This document shows, piece by piece, positions 24,357 to 41,269 of a stretch of DNA of 64,000 nucleotides. Within the stretch, counting starts at the first letter, position 1, and each line of letters begins with the position of its first letter. Below the pieces are notes generated by a model. It searched no databases and was not told where the DNA came from. It worked only from the letters and a program-made list of their open reading frames with translations. The stretch lies in contig JADFXH010000007.1 of assembly GCA_015233675.1 (NCBI GenBank), positions 44,162 to 108,161 of the forward strand, written 5' to 3'. The translations under genes were made by a program, and so were the position numbers. Source of the DNA: Candidatus Omnitrophota bacterium. Lineage in GTDB: Bacteria > Omnitrophota > Gorgyraeia > Zapsychrales > Fredricksoniimonadaceae.

Positions 24357-24485
24357 AATCTGTGTTAGCATTGACAGATTAAATCAATCATGAAGAAAGG
24401 AAATACAATATGGCAACTAAAAAAGCCCCTTGCAAATCATGCAAAAAGACAGCTAAAAAAAAGTAAATAATTACTAATAACTCTT

Positions 24486-24523
24486 ACACAAAACCCTCTA
24501 ATCATTTTTAGAGGGTTTTGTGT
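24486..24523. terminator. bidirectional intrinsic terminator hairpin
   Basis: ACACAAAACCCTCTA (24486-24500), an 8-nt loop, then TAGAGGGTTTTGTGT (24509-24523), a perfect 15-bp stem whose arms contain and are flanked by T-runs on both strands. It sits between convergent genes (hppA on + and 24548-25339 on -). Confidence 0.7.
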
Positions 24524-24547
24524 TTTATATCCTTCATTCTCTCATAT

Positions 24548-25339
24548 TTATTTCCTCAACTCTCCCCCTGCAAAATTGCCCCCATTGCCGGTTATTTTGG
24601 CTTTGAAGCCTGAGGTGTCTGGCAGGCTCTTGGAAAAGATCGCTGAAGCCTCGAGCGCATCCTTTGCGGTCACGGGCATTTTTTCCAAAACAGAAGCAGA
24701 TGCTGATGCAGATTCCGGCGATGTTGCCTTAACTGATGAAACTGGTGTTGCCGGCAAGCGAACATCAGCCTTCCCTAACGGATTTATAAATCCAGCCAAA
24801 CATAAAAAAACGGTTGAGATCAAACCAAAAAAAAGAAAGCCCACGGACCGACCATAGGCGTAATCCATCATCACATTAGAAATCCCTGTGTCGTCAATGG
24901 CGCGTTGCAAATGTTCCTCATTCCACTTGCTGTTTTTTTCTGCAAGGAGAATAGCAACTGAAAATCCGGCCAGCGCTGCCAATACCAGCACTGTCGACAG
25001 ATCCCCGGTCACAAACCCTGTAAAGATCATTACAGCAAGAATCCCCACAGCGCTCCAGGAAACAGCAACAATGATTCTGTTCCGGCCTGCCCTGGCTTCC
25101 ATGAAGGCCATCAATAAATTCCTAAACCTAGAATCATGGTCCTGTCTTAATTTAGCCTCAATCTGCTTTTCCCGTTGCGAGCTTTCATCACGTAATTTTA
25201 TGATTTCTTCAGCATGGCGGGCTTCCAAGTCAATGGCAAGCTGTTTTTGGTTCGCGGCATTTTCTTCCTGTAATTTCTGAAGCTGCTCTGAAAGCTTTTG
25301 GGCCATATATGACTCCTTTAAGAATTTAGGACTTCTCAT
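24548..25339 (-). CDS. hypothetical membrane protein with N-terminal coiled coil
   Basis: 263 aa. Contains a charged helical N-terminus, about 4 hydrophobic spans and an Ala/Ser-rich tail. No family was recognised. Confidence 0.4.
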   Translation of the reverse strand: MRSPKFLKESYMAQKLSEQLQKLQEENAANQKQLAIDLEARHAEEIIKLRDESSQREKQIEAKLRQDHDSRFRNLLMAFMEARAGRNRIIVAVSWSAVGILAVMIFTGFVTGDLSTVLVLAALAGFSVAILLAEKNSKWNEEHLQRAIDDTGISNVMMDYAYGRSVGFLFFGLISTVFLCLAGFINPLGKADVRLPATPVSSVKATSPESASASASVLEKMPVTAKDALEASAIFSKSLPDTSGFKAKITGNGGNFAGGELRK

Positions 25340-25381
25340 GTTAAAGGATTCGAGAAATTAAAGCGCTAAACACACTGCATA

Positions 25382-25624
25382 TTATTTCAACCCGCAGATC
25401 AACAGATACCCTGCGCTAAAAACAGCAACAGCAACGACCATAAGGCCCATGATCCTCGTATTACGGATTTCAAGGGCCATGTCTACAGGTTCTATACGCC
25501 AATTGATCTTAAGGTAAAATCTTTTCTGGATATCAATGGCCTGTGAAGGTTTTAAAGTAAAAAACAAACCCAAGGCCAGGCTGACTGAACAGATAAGGAT
25601 AAGGGAAGGAAAACAAAAAACCAT
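25382..25624 (-). CDS. small 2-TM membrane protein
   Basis: 80 aa with two hydrophobic helices. No family was recognised. Confidence 0.3.
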   Translation of the reverse strand: MVFCFPSLILICSVSLALGLFFTLKPSQAIDIQKRFYLKINWRIEPVDMALEIRNTRIMGLMVVAVAVFSAGYLLICGLK

Positions 25625-25726
25625 ACTTAACCTTGAAGAAGGGGGTCTTAAAACTTATATAAATATTTTACCATTTACTACAAAATAACAAACAAATTTC
25701 TATTCTCCCCCTTTGGTTCTGAAATT

Positions 25727-26302
25727 TTATGAAGTGACTTTTTTTAATAACCAGGACATGTTTTCGCCCAAGACGGTCATAGTTTTTATCCCTTCATCAT
25801 CGTTATTGACATCTCCTATTTCACGGCCAAAAGCAAAGTTCCAATAGCTGGAGCCGACCACAATCATCTCTGAGATCGTAAAAAAATGATTCATGGTATC
25901 AAATGCGTGAATAGCACCCCCGCGACGCACCGCCATGACCGCAGCGCCTATTTTCCGCTTTAAAAAACTATCATTAGCACGAGCTACAAGACATGTACGG
26001 TCAATAAGGGCTTTCATCTCAGAAGAAACATCCGCGACATAAACAGGAGAACCAAGGATGATCCCGTCAGCATCGGCCATTTTATCAATACATTCGTTGA
26101 CGAAATCTCCGTCGAATGAACAGCGCCTGTTTTTTTTGCTGGAGCATTTATAACAGGCCCTGCAACCGCGGATGGTATGGCCGGCCATCTGTATCTGCTC
26201 GCATTCAATTCCATTCTTTTTTAAGGGTTCAAAAACTTTCTCGATCAAAACAGATGTGTTCCCGTTCTTGCGTGAACTCCCGTTAATGGCAACGACTTTC
26301 AT
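25727..26302 (-). CDS. iron-sulfur flavoprotein / NADPH-dependent FMN reductase family
   Basis: MKVVAINGSSRKNGNTS flavodoxin-like N-terminus, and a compact cysteine motif CRACYKCSSKKNRRC typical of Isf-type proteins. Confidence 0.65.
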   Translation of the reverse strand: MKVVAINGSSRKNGNTSVLIEKVFEPLKKNGIECEQIQMAGHTIRGCRACYKCSSKKNRRCSFDGDFVNECIDKMADADGIILGSPVYVADVSSEMKALIDRTCLVARANDSFLKRKIGAAVMAVRRGGAIHAFDTMNHFFTISEMIVVGSSYWNFAFGREIGDVNNDDEGIKTMTVLGENMSWLLKKVTS

Positions 26303-26393
26303 TTCCCCCTCCGTTCATAAACAGTAAAAGTAGTTTTTTCTTGTAAATTTGTATTTTTTAAAATTTTATCACATTTAAACTAAAAAGTAAGTC

Positions 26394-26430
26394 ATAAAAA
26401 ATCCCCGCGAAAGCTTACGCTTGCAGGGAT
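26394..26430 (-). terminator. intrinsic terminator after the last gene of the long minus-strand array
   Basis: The minus strand reads ATCCCTGCAAGCGTAAGCTTTCGCGGGGAT followed by TTTTT. The outer 8 bp pair (one G-U wobble) and are GC-rich. It lies about 50 nt downstream of the stop at 26483. Confidence 0.5.
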
Positions 26431-26482
26431 TATTTATTGCCACGATAAACAATTACAAAATAAAATGGTGCGCTGTTAAACC

Positions 26483-26902
26483 TCAAAATTTCTGGCTGGG
26501 GTCTTTATCTTTAAACAGAAGGATCGCCCGGGCTAATTCCTCAAGCCTGATCGGTTTTACACAACAACTGTTCATCCCGATGCAAAGGCCTTCTTTTAGC
26601 TGTTCCCTCGTCGCCGAACCAGTAAGGGCAATAATCCACATCTGTGATCCTAATTCCTGACGGATGATCCTGGTTGCTTCCAAACCTCCCATAACAGGCA
26701 TCTGGAAGTCCATAAGGCACAGGTCGTACTTATTGGCCTTGACCTTATTGACCGCTTCCAACCCATTATACGCGTAATCGGCAGTACAGCCTAAGATATC
26801 AAAATAGGCTTTAATCAAATCCCTGTTAGGTTTAATATCTTCAACGACAAGAACGTGCAGCCCTTTACAACAATTAACCAAATCATTTTTTTCTTCTGTC
26901 AT
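26483..26902 (-). CDS. single-domain response regulator (receiver)
   Basis: VLVVEDIKPNRDL ... [16 protein letters not shown] ... IIALTGSA ... KP receiver motifs. Confidence 0.8.
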   Translation of the reverse strand: MTEEKNDLVNCCKGLHVLVVEDIKPNRDLIKAYFDILGCTADYAYNGLEAVNKVKANKYDLCLMDFQMPVMGGLEATRIIRQELGSQMWIIALTGSATREQLKEGLCIGMNSCCVKPIRLEELARAILLFKDKDPSQKF

Positions 26903-27051
26903 TTGCCTGCCTCACATACGCATAAATTAAAAGAACTAATTAAATTATAATAACAAATGGTCTATATAAAATATAACACTTTTTTTGGGCAAATGGTATT
27001 ATTTCGTTGTTTATGTCGTTGTTTAGCGGTTTAGCGGGCATGAAAGAATCA

Positions 27052-30000
27052 CTATCGACTGCATGCCCATTTAAGGATTTGCTCTTTGAGTTTATTGTGG
27101 TTCATCGGTTTGGTCAGGAAATCATTCATGCCGCTTTTCAGGGATTTTTCATGGTCTTCTTTCATTACCGCCGCCGTAAGGGCAATGATCGGAATATCCT
27201 TATTGACTTCTCTTCGAATAATTTCCGTAGCTTCTAGTCCGCCCATCACAGGCATTTGTATGTCCATTAGACATATATCATAAGAGTTTTGTCTTATCAT
27301 CTCAATTGCTTCCCGGCCGTTATTAGCATAATCACTGACACAGCCAAACATGTCCAGATACACCTTCATTAATTTCTGGTTAGGCGTTTGGTCTTCGACA
27401 ACAAGCACCCTTATGCCTTTTAAAGACAACTCCCCGACGGTATGACGGGTTATGATATCTTTTTCTATCCTTTTATCTCCCATCACAGCTTGTATTATTT
27501 TAATCAACTCATGCCTAAGTACCGGTTTTGACAAATAAGCGTCAAATCCTGCCTGCTGGGCTTCTTCCGAAGTGCCGGGCCTTACATCTGATGTGGCAGC
27601 GATAAATTTTATACAGCCATACTTTTCTTCTTCCCGTAAACGTTTAATTAATGTCATGCCATCCATTTCCGGCATCATGATATCCGATATAATGATCTCA
27701 GGTAAATCCTGTTGTCCGCTTATCCATGATAATAATTTCAAAGCACGGTCTCCAGTATAAATAACTTCCATACCGATATCTTTACAATATCTCTCAATAA
27801 GCTTTAGCCCATGTTCATTATCGTCGACAATGGCGACCTTCTTGCCTTTAAGGCTCATCATGTTAACCAATGAAATATCTGTTTGTCTCAGGGGTTTCCC
27901 TGTTTCCAGATGTAATGTGACTATAAACTCACTGCCGCGGCCAAGTTCCGAGAGAACCTCAATATCTCCTCCCATTTTTCGCGCCAGGGCCAAAGCGATA
28001 GAAAGACCTAATCCCGTTCCCCCGAATTTCCTTGTCGTTGAACTATCGGCTTGAGTAAATAATTCAAATATCGCCGATCGTTTATCCGCAGGAATGCCTA
28101 TCCCCGTGTCTTTCACTGAGATCTTAACCGTCCGAAAACTGCCGACCTGGGTTGAAGTCTCAGGTGATGAGACAGTGACTTTTATTTCGCCTTGTTCGGT
28201 AAATTTAACGGCATTGCTCAACAAATTTAGGATGATCTGGCGAACTCTTGTGGGGTCCCCCATAAAGAATGCCGGTGTGCCGGCTTGAAATTCAAACAAA
28301 AGATCAACATCTTTATTCATGGCTTTTACCGCTGTTATTTTTAATAAATTTCCTACCAAATATTCCAAATCAAAAGAAATTTTCTCAAACTTAACACTAT
28401 TGGCCTCAATCTTGGAAATATCAAGGATATCGCTGATAAGAGCCAGAAGGATGTCTCCGCTGCTTTTGATGGTATAAACATAATCTTTCTGCACTTCATT
28501 AAGCGGGGTGCCTTCCAAAAGATCGGAGAAGCCGATGATGGCGTTCATGGGCGTGCGTATTTCATGAGACATATTGGCCAAAAATTCACTTTTAGCCTTG
28601 TTGGCCGCATCAGCAATATTCTTTGCCTGGATCAGCTCCTGCTCTTGCTTTTTACGTACGGTAATATCAACGATGGCAAGCAAAACATGTTTCTCGTTGT
28701 CAATAAACACAGGCGCCGCATTAATGCTTAACCATACAGATACTTTTTTCTGATTTATAAAAAGTTCTTTTGGGGTTTCAATGCCATCAATTATTTGCTC
28801 CGTGGCCAAGGCCTGCTCAAAAAGATTACGGATAGCGCAAACCTTGCAAGCCGGAGTTTCACCACAACGTTGATTAGTAGTCAATGGATTGATACAACAA
28901 ATCGCCTCTCCGGGCCTTTCCAATAAAATATCACCCGCATTACGCCCGACCATGGCTGCTAAAATATTATTGACACGTTTGACAACGCCTTTCGAATCAA
29001 TAAGGATAAGGCCTACCTGAGATGAATCAAATATTGTCTGGAGATTGGTTTTTTCCTTTTCCAACAGTATCAAGCTCTCCTTTAAATCTTTTGTCTTTAT
29101 CCTCACAAGATTTTCAGCCCGAAAACGCTGGGTTACCATGGAATTCAAAAATGCAGCAATCAATGCTGTCAAAAAAATCCCCATAGGCAATACCGCCCAA
29201 TATCCATTGGATAAATTTTCTTCAATAAATGCCGAGCCCGGAACAATAGTGATCCGCCATTGACGATCAGGCATTTTCAGGATGGTTTGATATTTCAAAA
29301 AAGGATGGCCCCAATCAACCCTTCCCTTCCTCAGGACATGTCGATACAAAACACGATCCTGCGCAGGTGCCGTCATATCTTCGACAAGAAAAGACAGTCC
29401 TTCCGGCGGAGATTTTGAATAGGCCGCTTTAAGAAATTCATTTGTATTATAGACCCCAAGAACAAAACCCCGCAAGCTCTTGCGCCGCTCCTCAACGGTA
29501 TTCTTCGGCATATCCATGTCATACACAGGATAAAAAACCAATACCCCATTTTTCTTTGAAGATCCAAACAATTGAATCGGCGCTGTGGCCACCGGACGCC
29601 CCTCATCACGGCTTTTTTCTATGGTCAAACGCCTAAGCGTTTCAGAAGACAAATCAAACCCCAGAGCGGCCTTATTAACTTCAAAGGGCTGTACATAATA
29701 AACAGGAAAATACTCGTCCCGATCATGAACGGGGATCTTTTTGCCAAGAACATCCTTCTCATAAAGCTTAAAATTGTTTTCGACATAACTATTGGAGCTC
29801 TCATAAGAAGATAAATTCTCACGAGTGACACGCGGTATCCATGCTATGGCACGAATCGGCGCCTCTTCTAAAAATGGAGCAGTATATTGATTAAATTCCC
29901 TTAACCTCACGTTAGATCTGATGGCTTCCAAAAAACGCCGCAACCCGTCTAAGTTATCAAGCTGATGCCCCAACTCCAAAAAAACATTTTGAGCCCTGCT

Positions 30001-31497
30001 GACAGCTCGCTGCATAAAGGCCGTTTGGAAGCGGTCCCACGCGGTATTTTGCAGCTGCAAAAAAAGCCCTGCAGTGATCAAAGATCCAAATACTACTACT
30101 ATTACCGCTATCCCCCAACGCAGAGTGATGGGCATCTTTTTATCTTCAAGGGCCTGCTGCAGGGCCACATAAAACCTTCGCCAATAAGTAAATATACAAA
30201 GCACCATCAAACAGATAAATCCGACAATGAGGATAGACTTCAACCGGTTGTGGGCCACCGCATAACTAAAATCATGCGCGTTCTGGTCTATACCAAGTAC
30301 CCCGATCAGCTTTCCCGTACGGTAATCATTCAAAGGCGAAAATACTGATATCCAACTGCCCCACCTATCAGTGTAGGGCACCCCAACAATACTCTTTGAG
30401 GAGTCAAACACATCATAAACCGCTCGAGGAACTTCATCGTACACCTGTCCGGCAGGAGACTCGTCCTTACTGCCGATTGGTTCAGAATCGACAAGAAAGA
30501 CTATTTTCCCGCCTGCCTTACGCATAAGATAAATAAACCGAATGTGAGTCATGGCCTTGCGCAGGTTCTGAAGCTGGTCTTTCAATGCCCGATACGCCAA
30601 AGTGTTAACATCAGATGCCGAGCCAGTCAACTTCCTGACCAATGCATCGTCCATTACTGAAGTTACCTGTTGTGAAATATTTAAAAGCCTCGCACGCTGA
30701 AAATCTTTCTCATTAATCCCTGCCTTATCTGTGCAAAACCATCCCAAAGCAAGTATCAATATCATCGCAAGAAGAACCCCCGCCCCAAGTCTTTTTTGGT
30801 TATGAGCCATCTGAACATCAAGCTTTTCTATATAAATTTCTTCCTGATAATGCCAGATCATAAAAGCGATCACACCCGCAGCAAAACAACGCAAAAGTTG
30901 AACAGGAAATCCGGTAATAGTAAAAAATAAATCCTGATTGACTGTCAAAAAAGATAACTGCTCCGACTTAGGCAGAAAAAAACCAGCTAACGGGGCATAC
31001 ACAGCCATAGCAAATGCCGCAATGACCATGCTGCGAGCTCCCTGCTTGCTTTCTCTTGAAATCCTCCAGAATGCAAGGGCTGTCAGAAGCCCCCCGAAGA
31101 ATCCAAAAGAACAACGGATACACGCGTTCACTTGTGATACTCCGGCCCAAGTACCTAAGACTACCGCTAGAGATAGCGGAATATAGAACCATCGTCCTAT
31201 CCTGACATATTTAAACCGTTCGCATGTTAAGCGGCCAAATTCAAAAAGACAAATGAATGAAGCGGCCAATGAAATAATGAGAACCCGTTTAAAAAAGCCA
31301 TTATTGCCAAGGCTGATCACCAGCATGGACAGCCATTCATTGATTCCGTGGATCAACCCGAAAAGCCCCAGCCAATGCCAGGGAATCATGGACTCACGAC
31401 GTTTGGGAAAGGAAAAACATATCAAAAATAGTACAGTAAAGGCGAGGCTGTATACAAAAAAAATATAGTCCATCTGACTAGAAAAAAATTCACGCAT
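27052..31497 (-). CDS. multi-sensor hybrid histidine kinase (membrane sensor modules, CHASE-like domain, Cys-rich PAS, HisKA, HATPase, two receivers)
   Basis: 1481 aa. Contains N-terminal multi-TM and periplasmic modules, H-box [21 protein letters not shown], the G-boxes DTGIGIP and GGTGLGLSI, and two receivers ([12 protein letters not shown] and [11 protein letters not shown]). Confidence 0.85.
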
Positions 31498-31551
31498 GAA
31501 ACTTACCTCTCGGGATCATTCAAACTAGCTCCCAGATCGTTTTTATGTCTG

Positions 31552-31974
31552 TTATCCTGAAATTTGAGACAAGAAGCCTTTTTCTTTGAAGTATAAGCTG
31601 TATTGCTGATCCATATTGACCATATGATTATCAAGCCAGCTCGATAAAAAGGCAACCAGCTCCTGCGGCAAGGCTTTATTCCCTGAATTGAATTCTTCCC
31701 AAAACTCCAGCACTTTGGAGGTACAATTGCGGTGTTCCTTTGTATGCATCTCATAGCCGGGATAGGAAAACCTGATCATGAGGATCTCTTCAGTCGAGAA
31801 ATGTGCCCCAACATATTTTACAAGAGCTTCAAAAGTACTCGTAAGGACGCCTTTTTCGCAGCCCAGTTGTACGGCATTATCTAAAACATTCAGGGCCTCT
31901 AGGATCTCCTGATGCTGCGCATCAATGACTTTAATGTGCACGCTCATCTGCGATCCCCAGACAAGTTTGGGCAT
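31552..31974 (-). CDS. bacteriohemerythrin-like protein
   Basis: 140 aa. IDAQHQEILEALN, HFSTEE, HTKEH and the NHMVNMD His/Glu/Asp ligand pattern are those of hemerythrin-like metal-binding domains. Confidence 0.75.
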   Translation of the reverse strand: MPKLVWGSQMSVHIKVIDAQHQEILEALNVLDNAVQLGCEKGVLTSTFEALVKYVGAHFSTEEILMIRFSYPGYEMHTKEHRNCTSKVLEFWEEFNSGNKALPQELVAFLSSWLDNHMVNMDQQYSLYFKEKGFLSQISG

Positions 31975-32000
31975 AGACTAACTCCGAGGTATATTGCCGG

Positions 32001-32666
32001 TCATTCCAAATCGATCATTTGAGTATTGCCCACATAATCAACACGTTTGAGCTGCTGCAGGGCATCGATCTTCTTGAGAATAGCAGTGACCTTGCTTAGT
32101 TCATTTTTTATTTTTGACAATGTCAAATGCTTTTTGTCCTTTGGGTCATTTTGAGACAAAAGGATTTCAAGATAGGTGATCGCCGCCATTAATGGTTGAT
32201 TCATATTATGGTTATACGTCACCACCATATTCTTAACTGTCTCGAGATTTGTAATTTGAATTTTTTCTTCTTCAGCCCTTTTGATGCGCAGATGGGCCTT
32301 CACCCGGGTTTTGACTTCTTCGGGATTTATAGGTTTACTAATATAATCAGCCGCTCCTACAGAAAAACATTTAACCATGTCTTCAGGCTTATTCATTGCG
32401 GTAATAAAAAGTATCGGGATAGACTGATGTTTTTCATGCTTCTTAAGCCTTTGGCAAACCTCAAAGCCGTCTATATCCGGCATGATGACATCAAGCAGTA
32501 TAATATCCGGCTTTTCACGCTCCACAGCATCGAGAGCAGCACGGCCGGAATCAGCTTGCACAACTTTATACCCCTCGTCAGCCTGTAAAAGCAGCATTGA
32601 TAAAAGCTCACGGTTCGTCTTTTTATCATCTACAACAAGTATTTTCGAGGTTACTCTTTCCGTCAT
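32001..32666 (-). CDS. receiver domain fused to an H-box/dimerisation-like domain without ATPase domain
   Basis: ILVVDDKKTNRELL ... ILLDVIMPDIDGFE receiver, then YNHNMNQPLMAAITYLEIL. The latter parallels the H-box [20 protein letters not shown] of the kinase at 33224-34390. No N/G boxes follow. Confidence 0.65.
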   Translation of the reverse strand: MTERVTSKILVVDDKKTNRELLSMLLLQADEGYKVVQADSGRAALDAVEREKPDIILLDVIMPDIDGFEVCQRLKKHEKHQSIPILFITAMNKPEDMVKCFSVGAADYISKPINPEEVKTRVKAHLRIKRAEEEKIQITNLETVKNMVVTYNHNMNQPLMAAITYLEILLSQNDPKDKKHLTLSKIKNELSKVTAILKKIDALQQLKRVDYVGNTQMIDLE

Positions 32667-33205
32667 TTCTTTTTATCCCATTTTTTGACGATCGCGCTGA
32701 TCTTGTCCTGCACCTTGCTTTTGATCTCAATATCACTAAGAATAGAGTTCAGCAACTCCTCGTGTTCTTCGGCCATACGCAGGATATCCAGTTTTAATTC
32801 TTCGTTATACCTTTCCAAACGGAAACGTTCAATCGCATGCTTCAAAGGAAGAAGCACCTTATCTTTATCCTCAATGGGTTTAAGGATGTAATCAAAAGCT
32901 CCTTCTCTTAGGGCGTCCTGACAGGTTTCCATCGTGCCGAATCCTGTTAAGAAAATCACAGGGATTTCTTTTTTCCTTAAATTAAGATATCTTAGTAATT
33001 CTATCCCCATTTTACCGGGCATTTTAAGATCACTGATAATAGCTTCAATATCTCTTTTTAATTCAACGACCTTAATAGCATTATCAACGCAATCCGCTAT
33101 GTACACCTGAAAACCTAATGCTTCCAGGAGTTCTTGAAGCGATTCTCTGATGGCTTCTTCATCATCCACTACTAAAACACAACCTTGTTTTTCCTTTGTT
33201 GCCAT
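32663..33205 (-). CDS. response regulator (receiver plus short helical C-terminal tail)
   Basis: VLVVDDEEAIRESL ... IISDLKMPGKMG ... FLTGFG ... KP. It has a 4-nt overlap with the next gene. Confidence 0.75.
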   Translation of the reverse strand: MATKEKQGCVLVVDDEEAIRESLQELLEALGFQVYIADCVDNAIKVVELKRDIEAIISDLKMPGKMGIELLRYLNLRKKEIPVIFLTGFGTMETCQDALREGAFDYILKPIEDKDKVLLPLKHAIERFRLERYNEELKLDILRMAEEHEELLNSILSDIEIKSKVQDKISAIVKKWDKKK

Positions 33206-33223
33206 GGTCTGCCTCCGGTTAAT

Positions 33224-34390
33224 TTACAAATTTTCCAATTCAGCTTTTAGCTCTTTATTTAATGCCTCAACACCGGCCAAATCCTGTTCTTTATCAAGAG
33301 GAAGCACAAAATAAAAAATCTTTCGCTCATTCTTTAAAGATGAAAACCCGATTACCCCTTTATGGCTTTTTATAATGGTAAAAGAAACGGAAAGACCAAG
33401 GCCGGTCCCTTTACCCGGGGCCTTAGTGGTAAAAAAGGGCTCAAAAAGATTCTCCTCTGATCCGCTTTTGACCGCTATCCCATTATCAATAACACCGGAG
33501 ACAATTGCGGGGAAGTTCTTCAATTTTTTAGAAATAAACCAGATGTGGCCGCCTTCCTGTTGATTAAATTTCTCATCAATGGCATCACGGGCATTGATCA
33601 GGAAATTAACCACCACATCCTGGATCTGGTAGCGGTCAATATAAACCTCAGGGAGGTCTTCTTGCAGTTGTAATTCCACGGCAATATTGTGGTCCTTGAA
33701 CTGTTGCGTCAAAAGAAAAAGTCCGTCAGTGATCGGGCGTTTGACGTCCCCTTCGGTAAAGGTGCCCATACGGCTACCGGAATATTCATGCATCCGCTTA
33801 ACGATAGTGCCAAGCCTGACAAACTGGTCCTTGATCTTGAGCATCTTGTTTTTCAGCACCAAATTTGTCACGAGAGCATCATTCATCAAGAGTCCCTCGA
33901 GATAGGATGATATGGCCATCAAAGGCTGGTTCATTTCATGGGCAACACCGGCACCCAATTCCCCCATCGCGGTCAATTTCGCAGCCCGTAAAAGCTGTGT
34001 CTGTTGGATTTTTAACTGCAGGTACAATCTTTGATTTTCCGCGGCCCGGTTGATATTCATACACAGTTCTTCTAAATTAAAAGGTTTAATAATATAATCA
34101 AAAGCCCCTTTTTTTAATGAGGCAATAGCGCTTTCCATGTCCCCATGCCCTGTCAGCATAATCACCTGCGCCTCGGCGTTCATGAGTTTAACTTTTTCCA
34201 GCATTTCCATGCCATCCATGCCGGGCATCGAAATATCGCAAATGATCACTTCCGGTTTCTCTTTGACAAAAGCTTCCAGGCCTTGCTCGCCGCTTGAGGC
34301 AACAAAAACCTCATAGTTCTTGAGTTCCAAGCTGCTTTTGAGCATCTTGCGCTGTATTTCTTCATCATCTACAATCAATATTTTTATCAT
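33224..34390 (-). CDS. receiver-histidine kinase fusion (REC-HisKA-HATPase)
   Basis: [14 protein letters not shown] ... [12 protein letters not shown] receiver, H-box [11 protein letters not shown]-box NARDAI and G-box GKGTGLGLS. Confidence 0.85.
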
Positions 34391-34413
34391 CTTTTTTAAT
34401 TCCCCTTCCCATA

Positions 34414-36027
34414 TCAGGATTTTTCAACGAAGGCGCGTTGTAAATTTTCAAAATTAATTTTTACCTGAAAATATAATTTCTTGATCTCTTCAATACTCCC
34501 TTTCTCTCTTGCCAGATTGTTTATCTCTGCGGCAGGCGTCGACACCGAAGTCAGCCTCAAATTAGAAAAAACCCCCTTTAGTATGTGCGAAGTTTGATCG
34601 ATATGAGTAAAATCATTTTCTACAATCGCTTTTTCTAAATTAGCAACGTCTGCACTTCCTTCCTCCACAGCCCCCCGCGCTATTTTTAAGTAAATATCTA
34701 GGGGGCATTGCAATTCTTTAGAATTTTGCTGGACCATTTCTTCAAACGAATTGATGTTGTTTTCATTGTTCATAGTTTCCCCTTCGCTAACCCCTCCCGC
34801 CAAGGGGAGGGAATCTAATTTGTTATTGCCCCCTCTCTCCAGGGGCGTAGAATTTAATGAACTATTGCCCCCCCCCACCAAAGGTGTGGAATTTAATGAG
34901 CTATTATGGTCTTTCTCAAGTTCAAGAGCCTTGATCTGCAGGGCCTTGATCTGGTCCTCATATTTCTGGATCATCTGGTCCATATGAATGGATTTGCGGA
35001 ATTCCTCAAACTCCTTGCCTTGGGCAAACTGCGCTATCGACTCAACCGCGCCTTTTGTCTTTTCATCGATAAGCTCAAGTTTCATCTTGCCTTCTTGGAT
35101 ACGCAATTTGATCTTGTGCAGTTCTTTCTTTTCTTCATCCATCAGCTTTTCAATATGAAACATTTCAATCTCTGATTTTTTGAAACGGGCCATACGTTCG
35201 CTTGTATCCTTCTGTGCGAGCGTCATGCGCTCGATCTGGTCAGTAAGACGCTTAATCACACTTTCCTTAACTGCGAGTTCTTCATTATTTTGCGGTACGT
35301 TCTTGCCCTGTTGCTCCATCATTGACAGCTGGGCCTTGAGCTTCACGAGCTCTTGCTCTTTCTGGCCGGACTCGGTTGCTTTTGTCTCAAGCTCAGCTTT
35401 AAGATTCTTAACTTCACTCAGAAGACGATTGATCTCGGTTTCCTTGACTGCGATTTCTTCAGTTTTTTGTAAGGCGCTCTTGCTTTCTTCTCCTAATCTT
35501 ATCAGCTCAACCTTGAGCTTCACAATCTCCTGTTCTTTCAAAGTGAATTCGTTCGCCTTGCCCTGGAGTTTTACTTTAAGACTCTCCACTTCACTGAGCA
35601 GGACCCTGTTCTCGCTTTCCTTATGCGCAAGCTCTTCACTGTTTTGAGAAACGTTTTTACCCTGTTCCTCCATTTTTGCCAACTGGACCTTGAGTTTCGT
35701 AAGCTCTAGTTCTTTCTGGGAGGACTCAGTCGCCTTTGACTCGAATTCTTCTTTAATCCTGCGCACTTCACCGACCAAATCCCGAAGATCATTATTTTTT
35801 GAAAGCAATTCTTCATTTTTTCGTGAGGTCTCAGCTTGCAATCTGTCGGATTCTTCTTTTATTTGTTCCAGCTCTTTCTTAAATTTCTCTGGAGCGGTTT
35901 CCGCAAAACTCAACTGCTCCTTTAATATTTTGATCTGCTTGTTTAATTTTGCGTCCTCATTAATGATATAAATGACAACACCGATAGCAACCACAGCACA
36001 CGTTATTGAAAAAATTATTAGGATCAT
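34414..36027 (-). CDS. membrane-anchored long coiled-coil protein with C-terminal HPt (histidine phosphotransfer) domain
   Basis: 537 aa. Contains an N-terminal TM (ILIIFSITCAVVAIGVVIYII), about 340 residues of heptad-rich E/K/L/Q sequence with about 59-aa internal repeats, and a C-terminal SHILKGVFSNLRL HPt signature. It has a 4-nt overlap with the upstream gene. Confidence 0.7.
   Translation of the reverse strand: MILIIFSITCAVVAIGVVIYIINEDAKLNKQIKILKEQLSFAETAPEKFKKELEQIKEESDRLQAETSRKNEELLSKNNDLRDLVGEVRRIKEEFESKATESSQKELELTKLKVQLAKMEEQGKNVSQNSEELAHKESENRVLLSEVESLKVKLQGKANEFTLKEQEIVKLKVELIRLGEESKSALQKTEEIAVKETEINRLLSEVKNLKAELETKATESGQKEQELVKLKAQLSMMEQQGKNVPQNNEELAVKESVIKRLTDQIERMTLAQKDTSERMARFKKSEIEMFHIEKLMDEEKKELHKIKLRIQEGKMKLELIDEKTKGAVESIAQFAQGKEFEEFRKSIHMDQMIQKYEDQIKALQIKALELEKDHNSSLNSTPLVGGGNSSLNSTPLERGGNNKLDSLPLAGGVSEGETMNNENNINSFEEMVQQNSKELQCPLDIYLKIARGAVEEGSADVANLEKAIVENDFTHIDQTSHILKGVFSNLRLTSVSTPAAEINNLAREKGSIEEIKKLYFQVKINFENLQRAFVEKS
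34788..34904. repeat. three tandem 39-bp units of a hairpin repeat, in-frame inside the HPt gene
   Basis: The units at 34788-34826, 34827-34865 and 34866-34904 each have the form C-rich arm / G-rich arm / GAAT(C/T)TAAT. Unit A forms a 7-bp GC hairpin (34792-34811). They translate as SLNSTPLVGGGNS / SLNSTPLERGGNN / KLDSLPLAGGVSE. Confidence 0.8.
35224..35739. repeat. about 177-bp (59-aa) tandem coding repeats, ~3 copies, in the coiled-coil region
   Basis: Protein-level repeats are KATESSQKELELTKLKVQLAKMEEQGKNVSQNSEELAHKESENRVLLSEVESLKVKLQG, KANEFTLKEQEIVKLKVELIRLGEESKSALQKTEEIAVKETEINRLLSEVKNLKAELET and KATESGQKEQELVKLKAQLSMMEQQGKNVPQNNEELAVKESVIKRL. Confidence 0.75.
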
Positions 36028-36644
36028 GCCTTTTCTCCACCAGGCTTAGGTTTTAAGCCCTTTAGCCTGCGAAGTTTTTCAAGTGTCGAATCGATCCCCT
36101 TGGATTCCTTCTCTTCAACGCCGATATCTTCAAGATTGCTTTGGACCTCTTGGTGAACATAAAGCTTGGAAAGATCAATCGACTCAAATTCGGCTGCTTC
36201 TTTAAGCTCCTGTAGCTTGTACTCGCGGGCAGGGCCGCTGAGACCTTTGAGCTCCTTTAGCATACCTGCAATCTTGTCGGAAAGCTTCTCCGATACAGCA
36301 TCGAGGGAACCTTGAAGGATCGCCCCCATATGCGTCTTAAATTCCTCGAGCGTCATGCCAGCTTGCCCCGCTGCAGGAGATGCTACAAGCGGCGCCGGCG
36401 GGACCGATAACGGGACAGCAGGGACCGGCGGCTCTGGTAGCACAGTTCTGGGCTCCTGTATCCTATTTTTCACCCGGGCCGTCACCACATCCATAGAACC
36501 CACAAATTCACCCAGCAGTAATTCCATCTCCATGAGCTCATCATTAAGCTCCTTACGTGACTGCTGAGTGGCATTGATCCTTTGAAATAATCTTGGGACC
36601 AAAACCTCGGGATCATCTATGGTATTTGTATCTTCAGGGCTCAT
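36024..36644 (-). CDS. hypothetical protein with central proline-rich linker (cluster-specific)
   Basis: 206 aa with LPEPPVPAVPLSVPPAPLVASPAAG between two helical segments. It has 4-nt overlaps at both ends, with the actin-like gene upstream and the HPt gene downstream. Confidence 0.5.
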   Translation of the reverse strand: MSPEDTNTIDDPEVLVPRLFQRINATQQSRKELNDELMEMELLLGEFVGSMDVVTARVKNRIQEPRTVLPEPPVPAVPLSVPPAPLVASPAAGQAGMTLEEFKTHMGAILQGSLDAVSEKLSDKIAGMLKELKGLSGPAREYKLQELKEAAEFESIDLSKLYVHQEVQSNLEDIGVEEKESKGIDSTLEKLRRLKGLKPKPGGEKA

Positions 36645-38032
36645 TGGCTCCCACCATTAATTGCATTAAACAAACATCCGCGCACAACACTGGTAAAAGG
36701 CTCCTTGGCGTGAAGGATATTCCCCACGGGAAATCCGAATTTAACCGATTTAATCTCCTCTTGGACGACATCAATAAAACCTGGCACCATGGATGATCCG
36801 CCTGCAAAAACGATATCAGCCGGCTCTTTAAAATGGGGAGTATCCGTGCTTTTGCCAAAGACACGGGCCATGTTCTCAATAAGATAATGGATATAATTAC
36901 GGTAATAGATCGCGATCGCTTCTTCTTCGCGGTTGGCGGGGATCTTGATACTCATGCCATGTTCCTTGATAGTTGAGACACGGGTCGTAGGGACACCAAG
37001 GACAGTCGCCGCGCTTTTATCGATCCAGTCACCGCCGCGCGTGATCGAAAACGACAGCACAGGCACAGACTTAAACGCGGCACATATATTGACCATGCCG
37101 GCCCCACAGGAAATGCCGATACCCGTAAAATCCTGATCTTCCATCTCGGAAAGGACAACGGCATATCCTTCGTCGATAACTAAAGGCTTAAAACCGATAT
37201 TCTTTAGGATCCCTTCAAAAACACCACGGTGGTAGATCGTATCCTGGTCGCGGTCAAGAGGTTTAGCGGGTACTGAAAAACAACAAACCTCGCCTTTTTC
37301 GCGAGGCTCCCATAAAATATTTTTCACTAAAAGCTGGATGATCGGGATAGACTCGGCTTCAGAAGGGTTTAATATCCCCATGTTCATGGACCGTTGTGTT
37401 TCCCGCCCGAAAATGTCCGCAAGCTCCAAAGCCATGCCACCTAAAACATAAAGTTTGTCCTGCAGGGCAACATATTTGATCTTAAGGCGTGTTAACAAAT
37501 CCTTGGTCGATTGATCACAACGCACGGAAAGAAAGGCATTGCGTTCATTCTTCACAAATACCCGTTTGTCCTCAACCTCACGGCTTGCGACAATATAGGC
37601 TGTTCCCAAGTCCAGGCCGACGCCTGTCCTGACCGCAGCGTTCCTGCCGCGGCTCAGCGCCGGAAGTACAACCGTAGTGGTTTCTTCTTCTTTGACAGGA
37701 ACCGGTTCTTGCTCTTCGCCCACCTCCTCGACCGTCTCCTCTTCCATGACAAATGCAAGCTTCTCGACAGGTGGAGGGGGAAGCTCTTCCCTTAGAAAAA
37801 CAGGCGGCTTGACGTCGCGGCCCATGGCGCGAGCACGAATATATTCGTTAATGGCGCGCAGTTTCGCGCGCATTTCGTCAACGGGAATTTCCTGGTCCCC
37901 ACGAAGTCTTTGAGGTTTAATTTCTTTTTCGTTAGAAAACTGCGGGCTCTTGCTTAGGTTGGAATAACTCTTTATCTTATCATTTATCTTTAATAATCGC
38001 TTTCTGATATCCTGCAATTCCTCATCGACCAC
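36641..38032 (-). CDS. actin-like ATPase (MamK/Mad28/MreB superfamily) with ~140-aa N-terminal extension
   Basis: GTG start at 38032 with AGAGG 7 nt upstream. Actin-fold motifs are GVGLDLGTAYIV (phosphate 1), FTGIGISCGAGMVNI (phosphate 2) and IVFAGGSSMVPGF (adenosine). It is a clear paralogue of 38134-39123. Confidence 0.7.
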   Translation of the reverse strand: MVDEELQDIRKRLLKINDKIKSYSNLSKSPQFSNEKEIKPQRLRGDQEIPVDEMRAKLRAINEYIRARAMGRDVKPPVFLREELPPPPVEKLAFVMEEETVEEVGEEQEPVPVKEEETTTVVLPALSRGRNAAVRTGVGLDLGTAYIVASREVEDKRVFVKNERNAFLSVRCDQSTKDLLTRLKIKYVALQDKLYVLGGMALELADIFGRETQRSMNMGILNPSEAESIPIIQLLVKNILWEPREKGEVCCFSVPAKPLDRDQDTIYHRGVFEGILKNIGFKPLVIDEGYAVVLSEMEDQDFTGIGISCGAGMVNICAAFKSVPVLSFSITRGGDWIDKSAATVLGVPTTRVSTIKEHGMSIKIPANREEEAIAIYYRNYIHYLIENMARVFGKSTDTPHFKEPADIVFAGGSSMVPGFIDVVQEEIKSVKFGFPVGNILHAKEPFTSVVRGCLFNAINGGSQ

Positions 38033-38090
38033 TTACTTGCCTCTTTCTTTCCGGCTTCCAAAACTTTTCTCATATCTTCTTTCTATAAAA

Positions 38091-38122
38091 GATTGCTTCG
38101 TCGCTTCGCTCCTCGCAATGAC
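38091..38122. repeat. GTCAT-type palindromic-unit repeat, single arm
   Basis: GATTGCTTCGTCGCTTCGCTCCTCGCAATGAC lies in the gap between the two actin-like genes. It belongs to the same family as the units at 46335, 50001, 60165 and 61564. Confidence 0.6.
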
Positions 38123-38133
38123 ACAGGCTCTTC

Positions 38134-39123: not shown

Positions 39124-39158
39124 ACGAAAAACTCCTTTTTTAACGCCCCCACCTAAGC

Positions 39159-39176
39159 GCCTGCCTGCTGGCAGGC
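39159..39176. repeat. intercistronic GC hairpin
   Basis: GCCTGCC-TGCT-GGCAGGC, a 7-bp stem with a 4-nt loop, lies between the coiled-coil gene stop (39211) and the actin-like gene start (39123). Confidence 0.5.
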
Positions 39177-39210
39177 TTCTCCCCATCAGTGAGGAGGAAT
39201 AATAGGATTC

Positions 39211-40759: not shown

Positions 40760-40763
40760 GGAT

Positions 40764-41066: not shown

Positions 41067-41078
41067 AGCTTCTCCTTA

Positions 41079-41267: not shown

Positions 41268-41269
41268 AG

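What the first reader, a model, noticed from the sequence alone, without database searches (positions are those of the whole stretch)
26483..36027. Multistep phosphorelay with hemerythrin apparently co-operonic with the magnetosome genes
Seen: downstream of the actin-like gene the array continues with two 4-nt overlaps (36641-36644 and 36024-36027). The remaining junctions are gaps of 23, 18, 26 and 54 nt plus one further 4-nt overlap (32663-32666). The genes in order are:
- an HPt protein;
- a REC-histidine kinase (33224-34390);
- a REC protein (32663-33205);
- a REC plus H-box-only protein that lacks an ATPase domain (32001-32666);
- a hemerythrin (31552-31974);
- a 1481-aa multi-sensor hybrid kinase with two receivers (27052-31497);
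- after a 149-nt gap, a final REC (26483-26902).

The first convincing intrinsic terminator on this strand is at 26394-26430.

Established: hybrid kinases, HPt and REC proteins form phosphorelays, and hemerythrin domains sense O2, iron or redox state.

Inference: a dedicated oxygen/redox-responsive signalling pathway is wired to the organelle cluster, either as regulation of biomineralisation or as an output toward motility. I am not aware of a described magnetosome cluster with such an embedded relay.
Basis: partly seen in the sequence, partly recalled or inferred. Interest (0 to 1): 0.8.

Follow-up and report, generated by a model that had tools for sequence, protein, structure and literature searches.

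The report
Phosphorelay conserved inside Omnitrophota magnetosome clusters
A set of ordinary-looking signalling genes (sensor kinase, phosphotransfer protein, receivers, hemerythrin) sits directly behind the actin-like magnetosome-chain genes, and it stays there in every related magnetotactic Omnitrophota genome examined, so it is probably a dedicated control circuit of the magnetic organelle rather than a chance neighbour.

Summary
All seven ORFs, their domains, the three 4-nt overlaps, the gap sizes and the terminator at about 26394-26431 were confirmed.

The window is a magnetosome gene cluster (MGC) of an uncultured Candidatus Omnitrophota MAG (locus tags HQL12_*).

New here: the linkage is conserved.
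- In 15 of 15 Omnitrophota MGC loci with enough sequence (actin identity 84-50%), signalling genes follow mad28-p206-coiled-coil on the same strand.
- Only 3 of 46 Planctomycetota actin-like control loci show this.
- In two loci the block lies between mamK and mad28.
- In three loci a che operon follows directly.

The conserved core is not the hemerythrin, which is present in 3 loci. The core is a Rec-controlled histidine kinase (LvrB-like, 33224-34390) plus a single-domain receiver with a conserved tail (32663-33205). A hybrid kinase, an HPt and a REC-DHp protein recur with them.

In this window the HPt is fused to the cluster's membrane-anchored coiled-coil protein. In relatives the two are separate neighbouring genes.

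No receiver carries a DNA-binding domain, so the output is probably protein-protein, on the chain cytoskeleton or on motility.

Co-transcription and phosphotransfer remain untested. I rate this a new variant of a known kind, with moderately high interest.

The parts
36641..38032 (-). Mad28-like actin (463 aa) with an N-terminal extension. It is the anchor gene of the linkage. Its stop codon overlaps the start of p206 by 4 nt.
   Evidence: Pfam Volactin E 3e-81. It is 100% identical to an NCBI 'Candidatus Omnitrophica' MAG protein, and about 67 relatives at >=48% identity were found.
36024..36644 (-). p206, an unannotated 206-aa protein. It has a long N-terminal helix, a Pro-rich linker and a conserved helical C-terminal domain. 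It is translationally coupled (4-nt overlaps) to Mad28 upstream and to the HPt gene downstream.
   Evidence: No Pfam or NCBIfam hit. It follows mad28 in every Omnitrophota locus. Only 60 relatives were found among 1.84 billion representatives, and of the few that carry a name all but one weak Planctomycetota hit are Omnitrophica. AF2 pLDDT 66.
34414..36027 (-). TM helix (aa 1-19), about 400 aa of coiled coil, an SSLNSTPL-GGGN repeat linker, and a C-terminal HPt domain (about nt 34438-34668; His481 codon 34585-34587).
   Evidence: Pfam Hpt E 5.9e-6 at aa 454-530. SHILKG motif. TM helix. A 39-nt tandem repeat lies at 34824-34905. Coiled-coil orthologues follow p206 in all relatives. The HPt is fused in the window and in L001, and is a separate adjacent ORF in L006 and L016.
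33224..34390 (-). Rec-controlled histidine kinase (REC-DHp-CA, 388 aa). Key residues are D52 (34235-34237) and H151 (33938-33940).
   Evidence: Pfam. Full-length match to LvrB 8vc9, E 1.3e-37. NCBIfam best hit is hybrid_RR_LvrB. Tight family of about 55 clusters at >=47% identity, then a sharp drop. Catalytic residues are invariant in 13 of 13.
32663..33205 (-). Single-domain response regulator (180 aa). It is an NtrC/FixJ/RssB-type receiver (D59, codon 33029-33031) with a conserved roughly 50-aa C-terminal helical tail (MAEEH...KVQ..I..KW) and no known effector domain. It is the presumed terminal acceptor.
   Evidence: Pfam. PDB hits. Always immediately downstream of the REC-kinase orthologue. 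Active-site residues are invariant in 14 of 14 and the tail is conserved.
32001..32666 (-). REC-DHp protein without an ATPase domain (221 aa). Key residues are D59 (32490-32492) and H153 (32208-32210), the latter in the conserved motif TYNHNMNQPLMA, where the residue after His is Asn, not Glu.
   Evidence: Pfam REC plus weak HisKA. 32% identical to the REC-kinase over REC+DHp. The DHp's best PDB hit is LvrB. Orthologues in L001, L006, L017, L019, L020, L089 and L170 keep D and H in 7 of 7. Fused to the kinase DHp-CA in L016.
31552..31974 (-). Single-domain bacteriohemerythrin (140 aa) with ligand positions H21, H58, E62, H77, H81, H117 and D122. It is an accessory element.
   Evidence: Pfam Hemerythrin 9e-14. 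NCBIfam bacteriohemerythrin 120 bits against a cutoff of 84. Homologues were found only in L001 and, weakly, in L020.
27052..31497 (-). Hybrid sensor kinase of 1481 aa. It has about 5 N-terminal TM helices, an extracytoplasmic domain, two more TM helices, CHASE, a TM helix, PAS, HisKA (H978), HATPase, REC (D1272) and REC (D1412).
   Evidence: Pfam. TM scan and sequence. Orthologues occur in MGC-linked blocks of L006, L020 (812 bits), L086, L089 (795 bits) and L170, but not in L001.
26483..26902 (-). Stand-alone receiver (139 aa, D65). It is a paralogue of the second receiver of the hybrid kinase and is preceded by a 149-nt AT-rich gap.
   Evidence: Pfam REC. 51% identity to HyHK residues 1358-1475. 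Best NCBIfam hits are receivers of LuxQ, BarA, ArcB and RcsC.
26394..26431 (-). Intrinsic terminator: a hairpin followed by a U-run. It marks the end of the array.
   Evidence: RNA fold -22.6 kcal/mol, z -4.67, 0 of 200 shuffles as stable. Sequence.

Best explanation
The block 26483-36027, together with p206 at 36024-36644, is a conserved, lineage-specific signalling module of the Omnitrophota magnetosome gene cluster. It is attached to the chain-organisation sub-cluster (ParA-like, coiled-coil, MamK, Mad28, p206, TM-coiled-coil).

Proposed mechanism. Every step below is inferred from domain logic and from the recurrent gene order HyHK-HPt-RECDHp-RECHK-REC. None has been shown.
1. The membrane hybrid kinase (27052-31497) senses an extracytoplasmic or PAS-borne cue, autophosphorylates on H978 and passes the phosphoryl group to its own receivers.
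2. The HPt domain (His481) takes it over. This domain is held at the membrane, next to the magnetosome chain, by its fusion to the cluster's coiled-coil protein.
3. The HPt phosphorylates the receiver of the Rec-controlled kinase (33224-34390) and/or of the CA-less REC-DHp paralogue (32001-32666).
4. As shown for LvrB, receiver phosphorylation switches on the kinase. The kinase then phosphorylates its adjacent cognate single-domain regulator (32663-33205).
5. That regulator has no DNA-binding or enzymatic domain, only a conserved helical tail. The output is therefore most likely a protein-protein interaction. My preferred target is the Mad28/MamK/p206/coiled-coil chain apparatus, giving environmental control of chain assembly or positioning.

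Accessory parts. The hemerythrin is an accessory O2/iron/redox input. The stand-alone receiver (26483-26902) is a phosphate sink or a branch.
For: Anatomy.
- Domains and the phospho-accepting His and Asp residues are all present.
- They are invariant in orthologues.

Linkage.
- The order ParA-cc-MamK-Mad28-p206-coiled-coil followed by REC/HK genes on the same strand occurs in 15 of 15 Omnitrophota loci. In Planctomycetota actin-like loci it occurs in 3 of 46.
- The block lies between mamK and mad28 in L085 and L086.
- It is split around cc270-mamK-mad28 in L020. Its position therefore changes while it stays in the cluster.

Orthology.
- The REC-kinase forms a tight family, with about 55 clusters against about 67 Mad28-type clusters.
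- No member was found demonstrably outside an MGC.
- Pairwise identities of the kinase and the receiver track those of Mad28: Mantel r 0.60 and 0.71, 0 of 5000 permutations.

Gene fusions.
- Coiled-coil plus HPt are fused in the window and L001, and are adjacent separate genes in L006 and L016.
- REC-DHp is fused to the kinase DHp-CA in L016.

Mechanistic precedent. The Rec-DHp-CA kinase LvrB is activated by receiver phosphorylation from the hybrid kinase LvrA (PMC13269768).

Operon-like layout. Overlaps and short gaps, no intergenic terminator-like site, and a strong terminator only at 26394-26431.
Against: - There are no expression or phosphotransfer data, and Omnitrophota magnetotactic bacteria are uncultured.
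- The block's composition varies between loci. The sensor kinases differ (CHASE, CHASE4, HAMP-PAS, dCache). HPt was detected in only 7 of the contexts examined: the window, L001, L006, L016, L020, L089 and the P0142 context.
- The hybrid kinase and the last receiver are missing from the closest relative's locus.
- Synteny and co-divergence would also arise by vertical descent alone within one lineage.
- Contexts of six kinase-family members were uninformative because the contigs start in the block.
- The target of the terminal receiver is pure inference.
- A che operon next to the cluster in three relatives points to motility rather than the chain.
- GC3 of some signalling genes (0.39-0.44) is nearer the flank than the mam genes at about 0.50.
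- The 149-nt gap may hold its own promoter.
Confidence: 0.5

Rival explanations
1. The circuit is the same conserved one, but its output is motility. It couples environmental sensing, and possibly the state or orientation of the magnetosome chain, to the chemotaxis/flagellar system as part of magneto-aerotaxis. It does not regulate the organelle.
For: A complete che operon (CheY-CheA-CheD-CheR-CheB) directly follows mad28-p206-coiled-coil or the signalling genes in L020, L085 and L086. The outputs are single-domain receivers, as in CheY-type signalling. Precedent for the idea: the MCP Amb0994 was reported to interact with MamK (PMC6056624, PMC12442639).
Against: No che, MCP or flagellar gene lies in this 64-kb window or in the 10 kb downstream in the window's own clade. 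REC180 is NtrC/FixJ-like, not CheY-like. The Amb0994 magnetoreception model is itself disputed.
Confidence: 0.25
2. The module is a neighbour by descent only. It is a general-purpose two-component island that settled at the edge of the MGC in an Omnitrophota ancestor and has been inherited with it, without any organelle-specific function.
For: Content varies between loci, and the hemerythrin and hybrid kinase are dispensable. In this window it lies at the 3' edge of the cluster. GC3 is intermediate between the cluster and the flank. Mantel correlation is expected for any vertically inherited gene. In Magnetospirillum, deleting the island region holding two hemerythrin-like genes gave no phenotype (PMC3197154).
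Against: The block moved within the cluster yet never left it: after the coiled-coil gene, between mamK and mad28, or split on both sides. There is a gene fusion of HPt with a cluster-specific coiled-coil protein, with 4-nt translational coupling to p206 and mad28. Catalytic residues are invariant and REC180 conservation is high, 82-59%. Control loci lack such genes.
Confidence: 0.13
3. The relay is a transcriptional regulator of magnetosome genes in response to O2, iron or redox. It would act through a DNA-binding or sigma-factor partner encoded elsewhere.
For: A hemerythrin with an intact diiron site lies in the block. DtxR-FeoA, FecR-like and FeoB genes are in the same cluster. [quoted passage not shown] An ArsR-type HTH gene and feoA follow the block in L002.
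Against: None of the six receivers in the window carries an HTH, AAA+ or anti-sigma domain. The hemerythrin is present in only 3 loci. The stable neighbours are chain-organisation genes, not biomineralisation genes.
Confidence: 0.12

Closest known systems
Lvr phosphorelay of pathogenic Leptospira (LvrA hybrid kinase -> LvrB Rec-DHp-CA kinase -> LvrC), PMC13269768 and PMC5863495
   Same: 33224-34390 has the same Rec-DHp-CA architecture and aligns with LvrB end to end (8vc9, E 1.3e-37; NCBIfam best hit). A hybrid sensor kinase is encoded alongside. The kinase has an adjacent dedicated receiver protein.
   Different: It is not an LvrB orthologue: 168 bits against a family cutoff of 500. Here there is an extra HPt step and a CA-less REC-DHp paralogue. 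The terminal receiver has only a short helical tail instead of LvrC's anti-sigma (Bergerat) domain. The genomic context is a magnetosome cluster.
Classical multistep His-Asp-His-Asp phosphorelays (ArcB, BarA, RcsC-RcsD-RcsB, LuxQ-LuxU-LuxO, Sln1-Ypd1-Ssk1). This comparison rests on established knowledge.
   Same: There is a hybrid kinase with C-terminal receivers, a separate HPt with an HxxKG histidine, and downstream receivers. The stand-alone REC139 and HyHK REC2 score best against LuxQ, BarA, ArcB and RcsC receivers.
   Different: The HPt is the C-terminal domain of a membrane-anchored protein with about 400 aa of coiled coil that is itself a magnetosome-cluster gene. The relay feeds a second kinase rather than a transcription factor. 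No DNA-binding output is present.
Signalling and hemerythrin genes inside magnetosome islands of Alphaproteobacteria and magnetococci (M. gryphiswaldense MAI: three hemerythrin-like genes and one sensory kinase, PMC3197154; Magnetofaba australis and Magnetococcus marinus: chemotaxis and signal-transduction genes between mamAB and mamCXZ, PMC3934378)
   Same: Sensory genes lie physically inside or beside magnetosome genes. Hemerythrin has been proposed as an O2/iron sensor for magneto-aerotaxis.
   Different: Those genes were not shown to be conserved as a module, and deleting a region holding two of the hemerythrin-like genes in MSR-1 gave no phenotype. Here an orthologous kinase/receiver pair is retained across a whole phylum-level magnetotactic lineage, is translationally coupled to mad28/p206, and is fused to a cluster protein.
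Amb0994 (MCP-like protein) and MamK in Magnetospirillum magneticum, a proposed torque-sensing link between the chain and chemotaxis (Philippe and Wu 2010, as cited in PMC6056624 and PMC12442639)
   Same: The concept is the same: a signalling protein physically tied to the actin-like magnetosome filament.
   Different: The protein classes differ (MCP versus HPt, REC and HK). Amb0994 is not encoded in the magnetosome cluster next to mamK. The Amb0994 model is contested. No interaction data exist here.
DHp-type histidine phosphotransferases Spo0B and ChpT. This comparison rests on established knowledge and was not tested by sequence here.
   Same: 32001-32666 carries a DHp helix with a conserved His but no catalytic ATPase. 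It can therefore only receive or pass on phosphoryl groups, or act as a phosphatase or heterodimer partner.
   Different: It has its own N-terminal receiver. It is a truncated paralogue of the neighbouring Rec-controlled kinase (32% identity). Spo0B and ChpT retain a degenerate CA-like domain and lack a receiver.

Membership tests
Multistep His-Asp phosphorelay | Hybrid histidine kinase with HisKA His, HATPase and a C-terminal receiver Asp | tested here: met
   27052-31497 has HisKA 3.8e-22 (H978 in SHEIRTP), HATPase 3.9e-29 and two REC domains (D1272, D1412)..
Multistep His-Asp phosphorelay | HPt domain with the phospho-accepting His in an HxxKG motif | tested here: met
   Pfam Hpt 26.9 bits against a cutoff of 24.6, E 5.9e-6. 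His481 lies in SHILKG. A profile built from it recovers small ORFs in L006, L016, L020 and L089, and those in L089 and L001 are Pfam-annotated Hpt in precomputed data. The single-sequence AF2 model was too poor (pLDDT 56) to test the four-helix-bundle fold.
Multistep His-Asp phosphorelay | Actual His->Asp->His->Asp phosphotransfer between these proteins | not testable with these tools
   This needs in vitro phosphotransfer profiling.
Rec-controlled histidine kinase (LvrB type) | N-terminal receiver with the full active site, a helical linker, a DHp His and a CA domain with N and G boxes, and no other sensor domain | tested here: met
   D8, D9, D52, T80, K102, H151, E152, N266, G328 and G330 are invariant in 13 of 13 orthologues. 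Full-length alignment to LvrB.
LvrB orthologue (NCBIfam NF047466) | Score at or above the curated cutoff of 500 bits | tested here: not met
   168.4 bits. The architecture class is the same, but the protein is not a member of the LvrB family proper.
Bacteriohemerythrin | Family model above its cutoff and the seven diiron ligands H-H-E-H-H-H-D | tested here: met
   NF033749 scores 120.4 bits against a cutoff of 84. H21, H58, E62, H77, H81, H117 and D122 were read from the translation.
Magnetosome gene cluster component | Conserved synteny with mam/mad genes across magnetotactic genomes of the lineage | tested here: met
   15 of 15 Omnitrophota loci, and internal to the cluster in L085, L086 and L020.
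Magnetosome gene cluster component | Absence from non-magnetotactic relatives, and presence in clusters of other phyla | not tested
The family sizes are comparable, at about 55 kinase clusters against about 67 Mad28 clusters. No counter-example was seen, but six contexts were uninformative.
Magnetosome gene cluster component | Co-transcription with mam/mad genes, or magnetosome localisation or a phenotype | not testable with these tools
   Only indirect evidence exists: 4-nt overlaps, short gaps and no intergenic terminator-like site.
Chemotaxis (Che) pathway | CheA, CheW and MCP genes with the module | tested here: not met
   None occurs in the 64-kb window. A che operon is contiguous only in L020, L085 and L086.

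The most novel reading that the evidence does not exclude
In magnetotactic Omnitrophota the magnetosome chain is itself a signalling platform. The membrane-anchored coiled-coil HPt protein, translationally coupled to Mad28 and p206, sits on the actin-like filament. Phosphotransfer would then depend on the state, position or mechanical load (magnetic torque) of the chain. The cascade would pass this to the Rec-controlled kinase and REC180, and in some lineages on to the adjacent che system. This would be a genetically encoded link between the magnetic organelle and behaviour, that is, active magnetoreception or polarity control rather than passive alignment.
Probability: 0.1. Interest if true: 0.9.

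Novelty: new variant of a known kind. Interest (0 to 1): 0.62.

Why it matters
How magnetotactic bacteria regulate magnetosome formation and chain positioning is largely unknown outside two Magnetospirillum species. The same is true of how the organelle is integrated with sensing and motility. For deep-branching lineages it is entirely unknown.

A phosphorelay that is retained inside the magnetosome cluster across a whole lineage gives a concrete, small set of proteins to work with. It is fused in some genomes to a cluster-specific coiled-coil protein, and in others it abuts a che operon.

These proteins can be tested without cultivating the organisms. Possible routes are in vitro phosphotransfer, interaction assays with Mad28 and MamK, and heterologous expression.

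It would also add a natural example of a Rec-controlled kinase cascade with a non-transcriptional output.

Tried and rejected
- Metagenome scan. The scan with the REC-kinase alignment gave patterns that were too generic ([16 protein letters not shown]).
- Six context look-ups of kinase-family members. These landed on contigs that begin inside or just before the block, or on a contig (P0142) without DNA whose 10-kb flank stops at the block's first gene. The upstream context could not be judged. They show only that the REC-kinase/REC180 pair ends the block.
- Single-sequence AlphaFold of the HPt domain. The model had pLDDT 56, too poor for a fold search, so none was run.
- p206. The model has pLDDT 66. 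The profile search showed only a lineage-restricted helical protein, and no function could be assigned.
- Promoter and terminator consensus scans. Promoter-like sites are at chance level, so neither scan proves nor excludes internal promoters.
- Rfam on 24000-42000. No RNA element was found.
- GC and GC3 per gene. There is only a gradual decline and no sharp island boundary.
- A hairpin in the 101-nt mamK-mad28 gap as a terminator. The fold is weak (z -2.65) and not followed by a proper U-tract stem. Rejected.
- Treating the hemerythrin as the defining sensor of the pathway. It occurs in only three loci. Rejected.


Full report
**1. Observation**

The ORF table reproduces every coordinate in the finding.
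- Minus-strand genes lie at 36641-38032, 36024-36644, 34414-36027, 33224-34390, 32663-33205, 32001-32666, 31552-31974, 27052-31497 and 26483-26902.
- This gives 4-nt overlaps at 36641-36644, 36024-36027 and 32663-32666, and gaps of 23, 18, 26, 54 and 149 nt.

Pfam confirms the domain calls:
- Hpt at the C-terminus of the 537-aa protein.
- REC-HisKA-HATPase in the 388-aa protein.
- REC in the 180-aa protein.
- REC plus a weak HisKA hit and no HATPase in the 221-aa protein.
- Hemerythrin in the 140-aa protein.
- CHASE-PAS-HisKA-HATPase-REC-REC in the 1481-aa protein.
- REC in the 139-aa protein.

The terminator proposed at 26394-26430 folds as a 13-pair hairpin followed by a U-run (-22.6 kcal/mol, z -4.7). 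The consensus scan found no terminator-like site in any intergenic gap of the array. Promoter-like sites occur at the chance rate. The 149-nt gap has no significant structure.

Four corrections apply:
- The 'HPt protein' is a TM helix, about 400 aa of coiled coil, a short repeat linker and only then an HPt domain (His481 in SHILKG).
- An unannotated 206-aa gene (p206) sits between the actin-like gene and the HPt gene.
- There are six receiver domains, not four.
- There are two actin-like genes.

**2. What the window is**

Upstream of the block, on the same strand, lies a deep-branching-type magnetosome gene cluster. It contains:
- a trypsin-PDZ protease;
- PDZ-magnetochrome proteins and a NifX-magnetochrome protein;
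- two CDF transporters;
- a TPR protein and a LemA protein;
- a TauE protein;
- FeoB, a FecR-like protein and DtxR-FeoA;
- three HEAT-repeat proteins;
- a ParA-like ATPase, a coiled-coil protein and two actin-like proteins.

The 463-aa actin is identical to a protein of a 'Candidatus Omnitrophica' MAG (contig 124,925 bp). Its relatives are nearly all Omnitrophica MAGs of the HQL series. p206 carries the locus tag HQL12_06145.

I call the 350-aa and 463-aa actins MamK-like and Mad28-like by analogy with the literature (PMC9840458, PMC12748827). I did not test that assignment against reference sequences.

**3. Comparative evidence**

Context look-ups of Mad28 relatives and a scan of species-representative genomes gave 17 Omnitrophota loci. 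I annotated their ORFs with phmmer, using the window's proteins as queries.

Every locus has ParA-cc-MamK-Mad28-p206. Wherever sequence continues, a TM-coiled-coil protein follows, and then receiver and kinase genes on the same strand.
- Closest relative (L001, Mad28 84%). The order is mad28, p206, ccHPt, REC-kinase, REC, REC-DHp, hemerythrin and then H+-pyrophosphatase. The hybrid kinase and the last receiver are missing.
- L002, L004/L088, L010, L012 and L015. Other sensor kinases (HAMP-PAS, dCache, PAS) and extra REC-kinases precede the pair. In every one except the truncated L015, the block ends with the orthologue of 33224-34390 followed by the orthologue of 32663-33205.
- L085 and L086. 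These were found through the kinase family. Here the whole signalling block lies between mamK and mad28.
- L020. The hybrid kinase, HPt and REC-DHp lie upstream of cc270-mamK, and more kinases lie downstream of mad28.
- L020, L085 and L086. A che operon (CheY-CheA-CheD-CheR, plus CheB in L085 and L086) follows directly.
- L089, L170 and L020. These show the recurrent order hybrid kinase, HPt, REC-DHp, REC-kinase, REC.

Control. Same-strand REC/HK/HPt ORFs within 10 kb downstream of the actin gene occur in 15 of 15 Omnitrophota loci, 2-5 per locus. They occur in only 3 of 46 Planctomycetota actin-like loci, mean 0.09.

Kinase family. The REC-kinase forms a tight family of about 55 clusters at >=47% identity and 388-411 aa. 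Similarity then drops sharply to <=37% identity with other architectures. This compares with about 67 Mad28-type clusters. At least 16 kinase-family members share a contig with Mad28 or p206. None was shown to lie outside a cluster. Six contexts were uninformative because the contig starts in the block or no DNA was available.

Co-divergence. Pairwise identities of the kinase and of REC180 correlate with those of Mad28: Mantel r 0.60 and 0.71, 0 of 5000 permutations. For MamK r is 0.90. This shows co-inheritance. By itself it does not show function.

**4. Fusions and conservation**

The HPt domain is fused to the coiled-coil protein in the window and in L001. It is a separate small ORF right behind the coiled-coil gene in L006 and L016. 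It lies elsewhere in the block in L020 and L089, and was not detected in the other loci.

In L016 the complete REC-DHp protein is fused to the DHp-CA part of the REC-kinase, whose own receiver is lost.

All catalytic residues are invariant among orthologues:
- REC-kinase: D8, D9, D52, T80, K102, H151, E152, N266, G328 and G330, in 13 of 13.
- REC180: D14, D15, D59, T87 and K109, in 14 of 14, plus a conserved C-terminal tail.
- REC-DHp: D13, D14, D59, T89, K111 and H153, in 7 of 7, with a conserved Asn instead of Glu after the His.

REC139 is 51% identical to the second receiver of the hybrid kinase. The REC-DHp protein is 32% identical to the REC-kinase over REC+DHp.

**5. What the parts resemble**

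- REC-kinase. It aligns end to end with LvrB (8vc9, E 1.3e-37; best NCBIfam hit, below cutoff). LvrB is the prototype Rec-controlled kinase. Phosphorylation of its receiver by the hybrid kinase LvrA frees the catalytic domains, and it then phosphorylates a dedicated regulator (PMC13269768).
- REC180. Its receiver is NtrC/FixJ/RssB-like, with the helical linker but no effector.
- REC139 and the hybrid kinase receivers. These are of the ArcB/BarA/LuxQ type that works with HPt proteins.
- Hemerythrin. It passes the bacteriohemerythrin model and has all seven ligand positions.
- p206. It is a helical protein restricted to this lineage, with 60 relatives among 1.84 billion representatives.

**6. 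Most likely mechanism**

Everything here is inferred. The proposed flow is: hybrid kinase, its own receiver(s), HPt (His481) tethered at the membrane and chain by the coiled-coil part, then the receiver of the Rec-controlled kinase and/or of the REC-DHp paralogue. The kinase is then activated and phosphorylates REC180.

No receiver has a DNA-binding or enzymatic domain. The invariant neighbours are the chain-organisation genes. In RS-1 these genes control sub-chain assembly (Mad23, Mad25, Mad26), positioning (MamK) and localisation (Mad28) (PMC12748827). I therefore favour a protein-protein output on the chain apparatus.

The che adjacency in three relatives keeps a motility output as a strong rival. 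A purely historical linkage and a transcriptional output through an unlinked partner are less likely, for the reasons listed under the rival explanations.

**7. Comparison with what is known, and novelty**

Sensory genes in magnetosome islands have been noted before.
- M. gryphiswaldense has three hemerythrin-like genes and a kinase in its island. Deleting a region that holds two of the hemerythrin-like genes gave no phenotype (PMC3197154).
- Magnetococci have chemotaxis and signal-transduction genes between mamAB and mamCXZ (PMC3934378).
- The idea that a signalling protein binds MamK exists and is disputed.

I found no description of a conserved phosphorelay module in any magnetosome cluster, or of signalling genes in Omnitrophota clusters. 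I checked the paper that released these MAGs (PMC7602337), recent work on Mad28 and MamK, and full-text searches. The library is incomplete; for example, Kolinko et al. 2016 could not be checked.

All the parts are standard two-component parts. What appears new is the wiring:
- lineage-wide retention inside the organelle cluster;
- translational coupling to mad28 and p206;
- an HPt fused to a cluster coiled-coil protein;
- a Rec-controlled kinase cascade ending in an effector-less receiver.

I rate this a new variant of a known kind, with moderately high interest.

**8. Limits**

- There are no expression, localisation or phosphotransfer data.
- All relatives belong to one lineage, so shared ancestry inflates the apparent replication.
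- Absence of the module from non-magnetotactic Omnitrophota and from other phyla's clusters was not tested.
- Gene names (MamK, Mad28) are by analogy.
- E-values of my phmmer annotation refer to the small ORF sets searched.

Noticed in passing
L085:14584-21224, L086:15194-20267, L020 (downstream of 12500): In three more distant Omnitrophota magnetosome clusters, a full chemotaxis operon (CheY-CheA-CheD-CheR, plus CheB in L085 and L086) follows on the same strand. In L085 and L086 it follows mad28-p206-coiled-coil directly, and in L020 it follows the signalling genes downstream of these. In L085 and L086 the two-component block lies between mamK and mad28.
   Followed up: partly
window 36024-36644 (-): p206 has no Pfam or NCBIfam hit. 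It has a long N-terminal helix, a Pro-rich linker and a conserved C-terminal domain ending in ...SNLGEVGVEEKESKGIDSxLERLRKLRG. It always directly follows mad28. Only 60 relatives exist among 1.84 billion representative proteins. It is a candidate new magnetosome-chain protein of Omnitrophota.
   Followed up: partly
window 38091-38120 (-), in the 101-nt mamK-mad28 gap: A 30-nt element, CATTGCGAGGAGCGAAGCGACGAAGCAATC, has terminal inverted ends (ATTGC...GCAAT). It occurs once in the window. From memory it resembles a short repeat seen in many environmental bacterial genomes. The gap's fold is only mildly stable (z -2.65).
   Followed up: partly
window 34824-34905: A 39-nt tandem repeat (2.1 copies, 81% match) encodes the SSLNSTPL(V/E)GGGN linker between the coiled coil and the HPt domain. 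The coiled coil itself contains a roughly 110-aa internal duplication. Such repeats, together with paralogous REC/HK genes, may explain why many related contigs break inside this block.
   Followed up: no
L016:7513-9039 and L016:6589-7501: In this relative the coiled-coil protein (188 aa) and the HPt (107 aa) are separate adjacent genes. The REC-DHp protein is fused to the DHp-CA of the Rec-controlled kinase, giving REC-DHp-DHp-CA (508 aa).
   Followed up: yes
window 16759-21744 (-): A 1661-aa multi-PAS/GAF-GGDEF-EAL protein (c-di-GMP turnover) lies about 5 kb beyond the end of the array. It follows an FMN reductase, a membrane protein and an oppositely oriented H+-pyrophosphatase. The pyrophosphatase is also the neighbour of the block in L001, where it is co-oriented.
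   Followed up: no
window 60252-61568 (-): This protein combines a dinitrogenase Fe-Mo cofactor (NifX-like) domain with a magnetochrome domain. It recalls the FmpA and FmpB proteins of Desulfovibrio magneticus RS-1, described as carrying 'denitrogenase Fe-Mo' domains (PMC12748827).
   Followed up: no
window 52919-54721 (-): A fusion of a PDZ domain with a CitMHS/ArsB-type transporter (600 aa) lies inside the magnetosome cluster, next to a TauE-family protein (51824-52864).
   Followed up: no
L002:20777-21449: In UBA10174 the signalling block is followed by an ArsR-type HTH gene and feoA. This is a possible transcriptional or iron link that is absent from the window.
   Followed up: no
window 27052-31497 (-), aa 1-480: The N-terminal third of the hybrid kinase has about 5 TM helices, a roughly 160-aa domain (…[15 protein letters not shown]…) and two more TM helices before the CHASE domain. 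None of this is covered by a Pfam model, so it may be an undescribed membrane sensor module.
   Followed up: no
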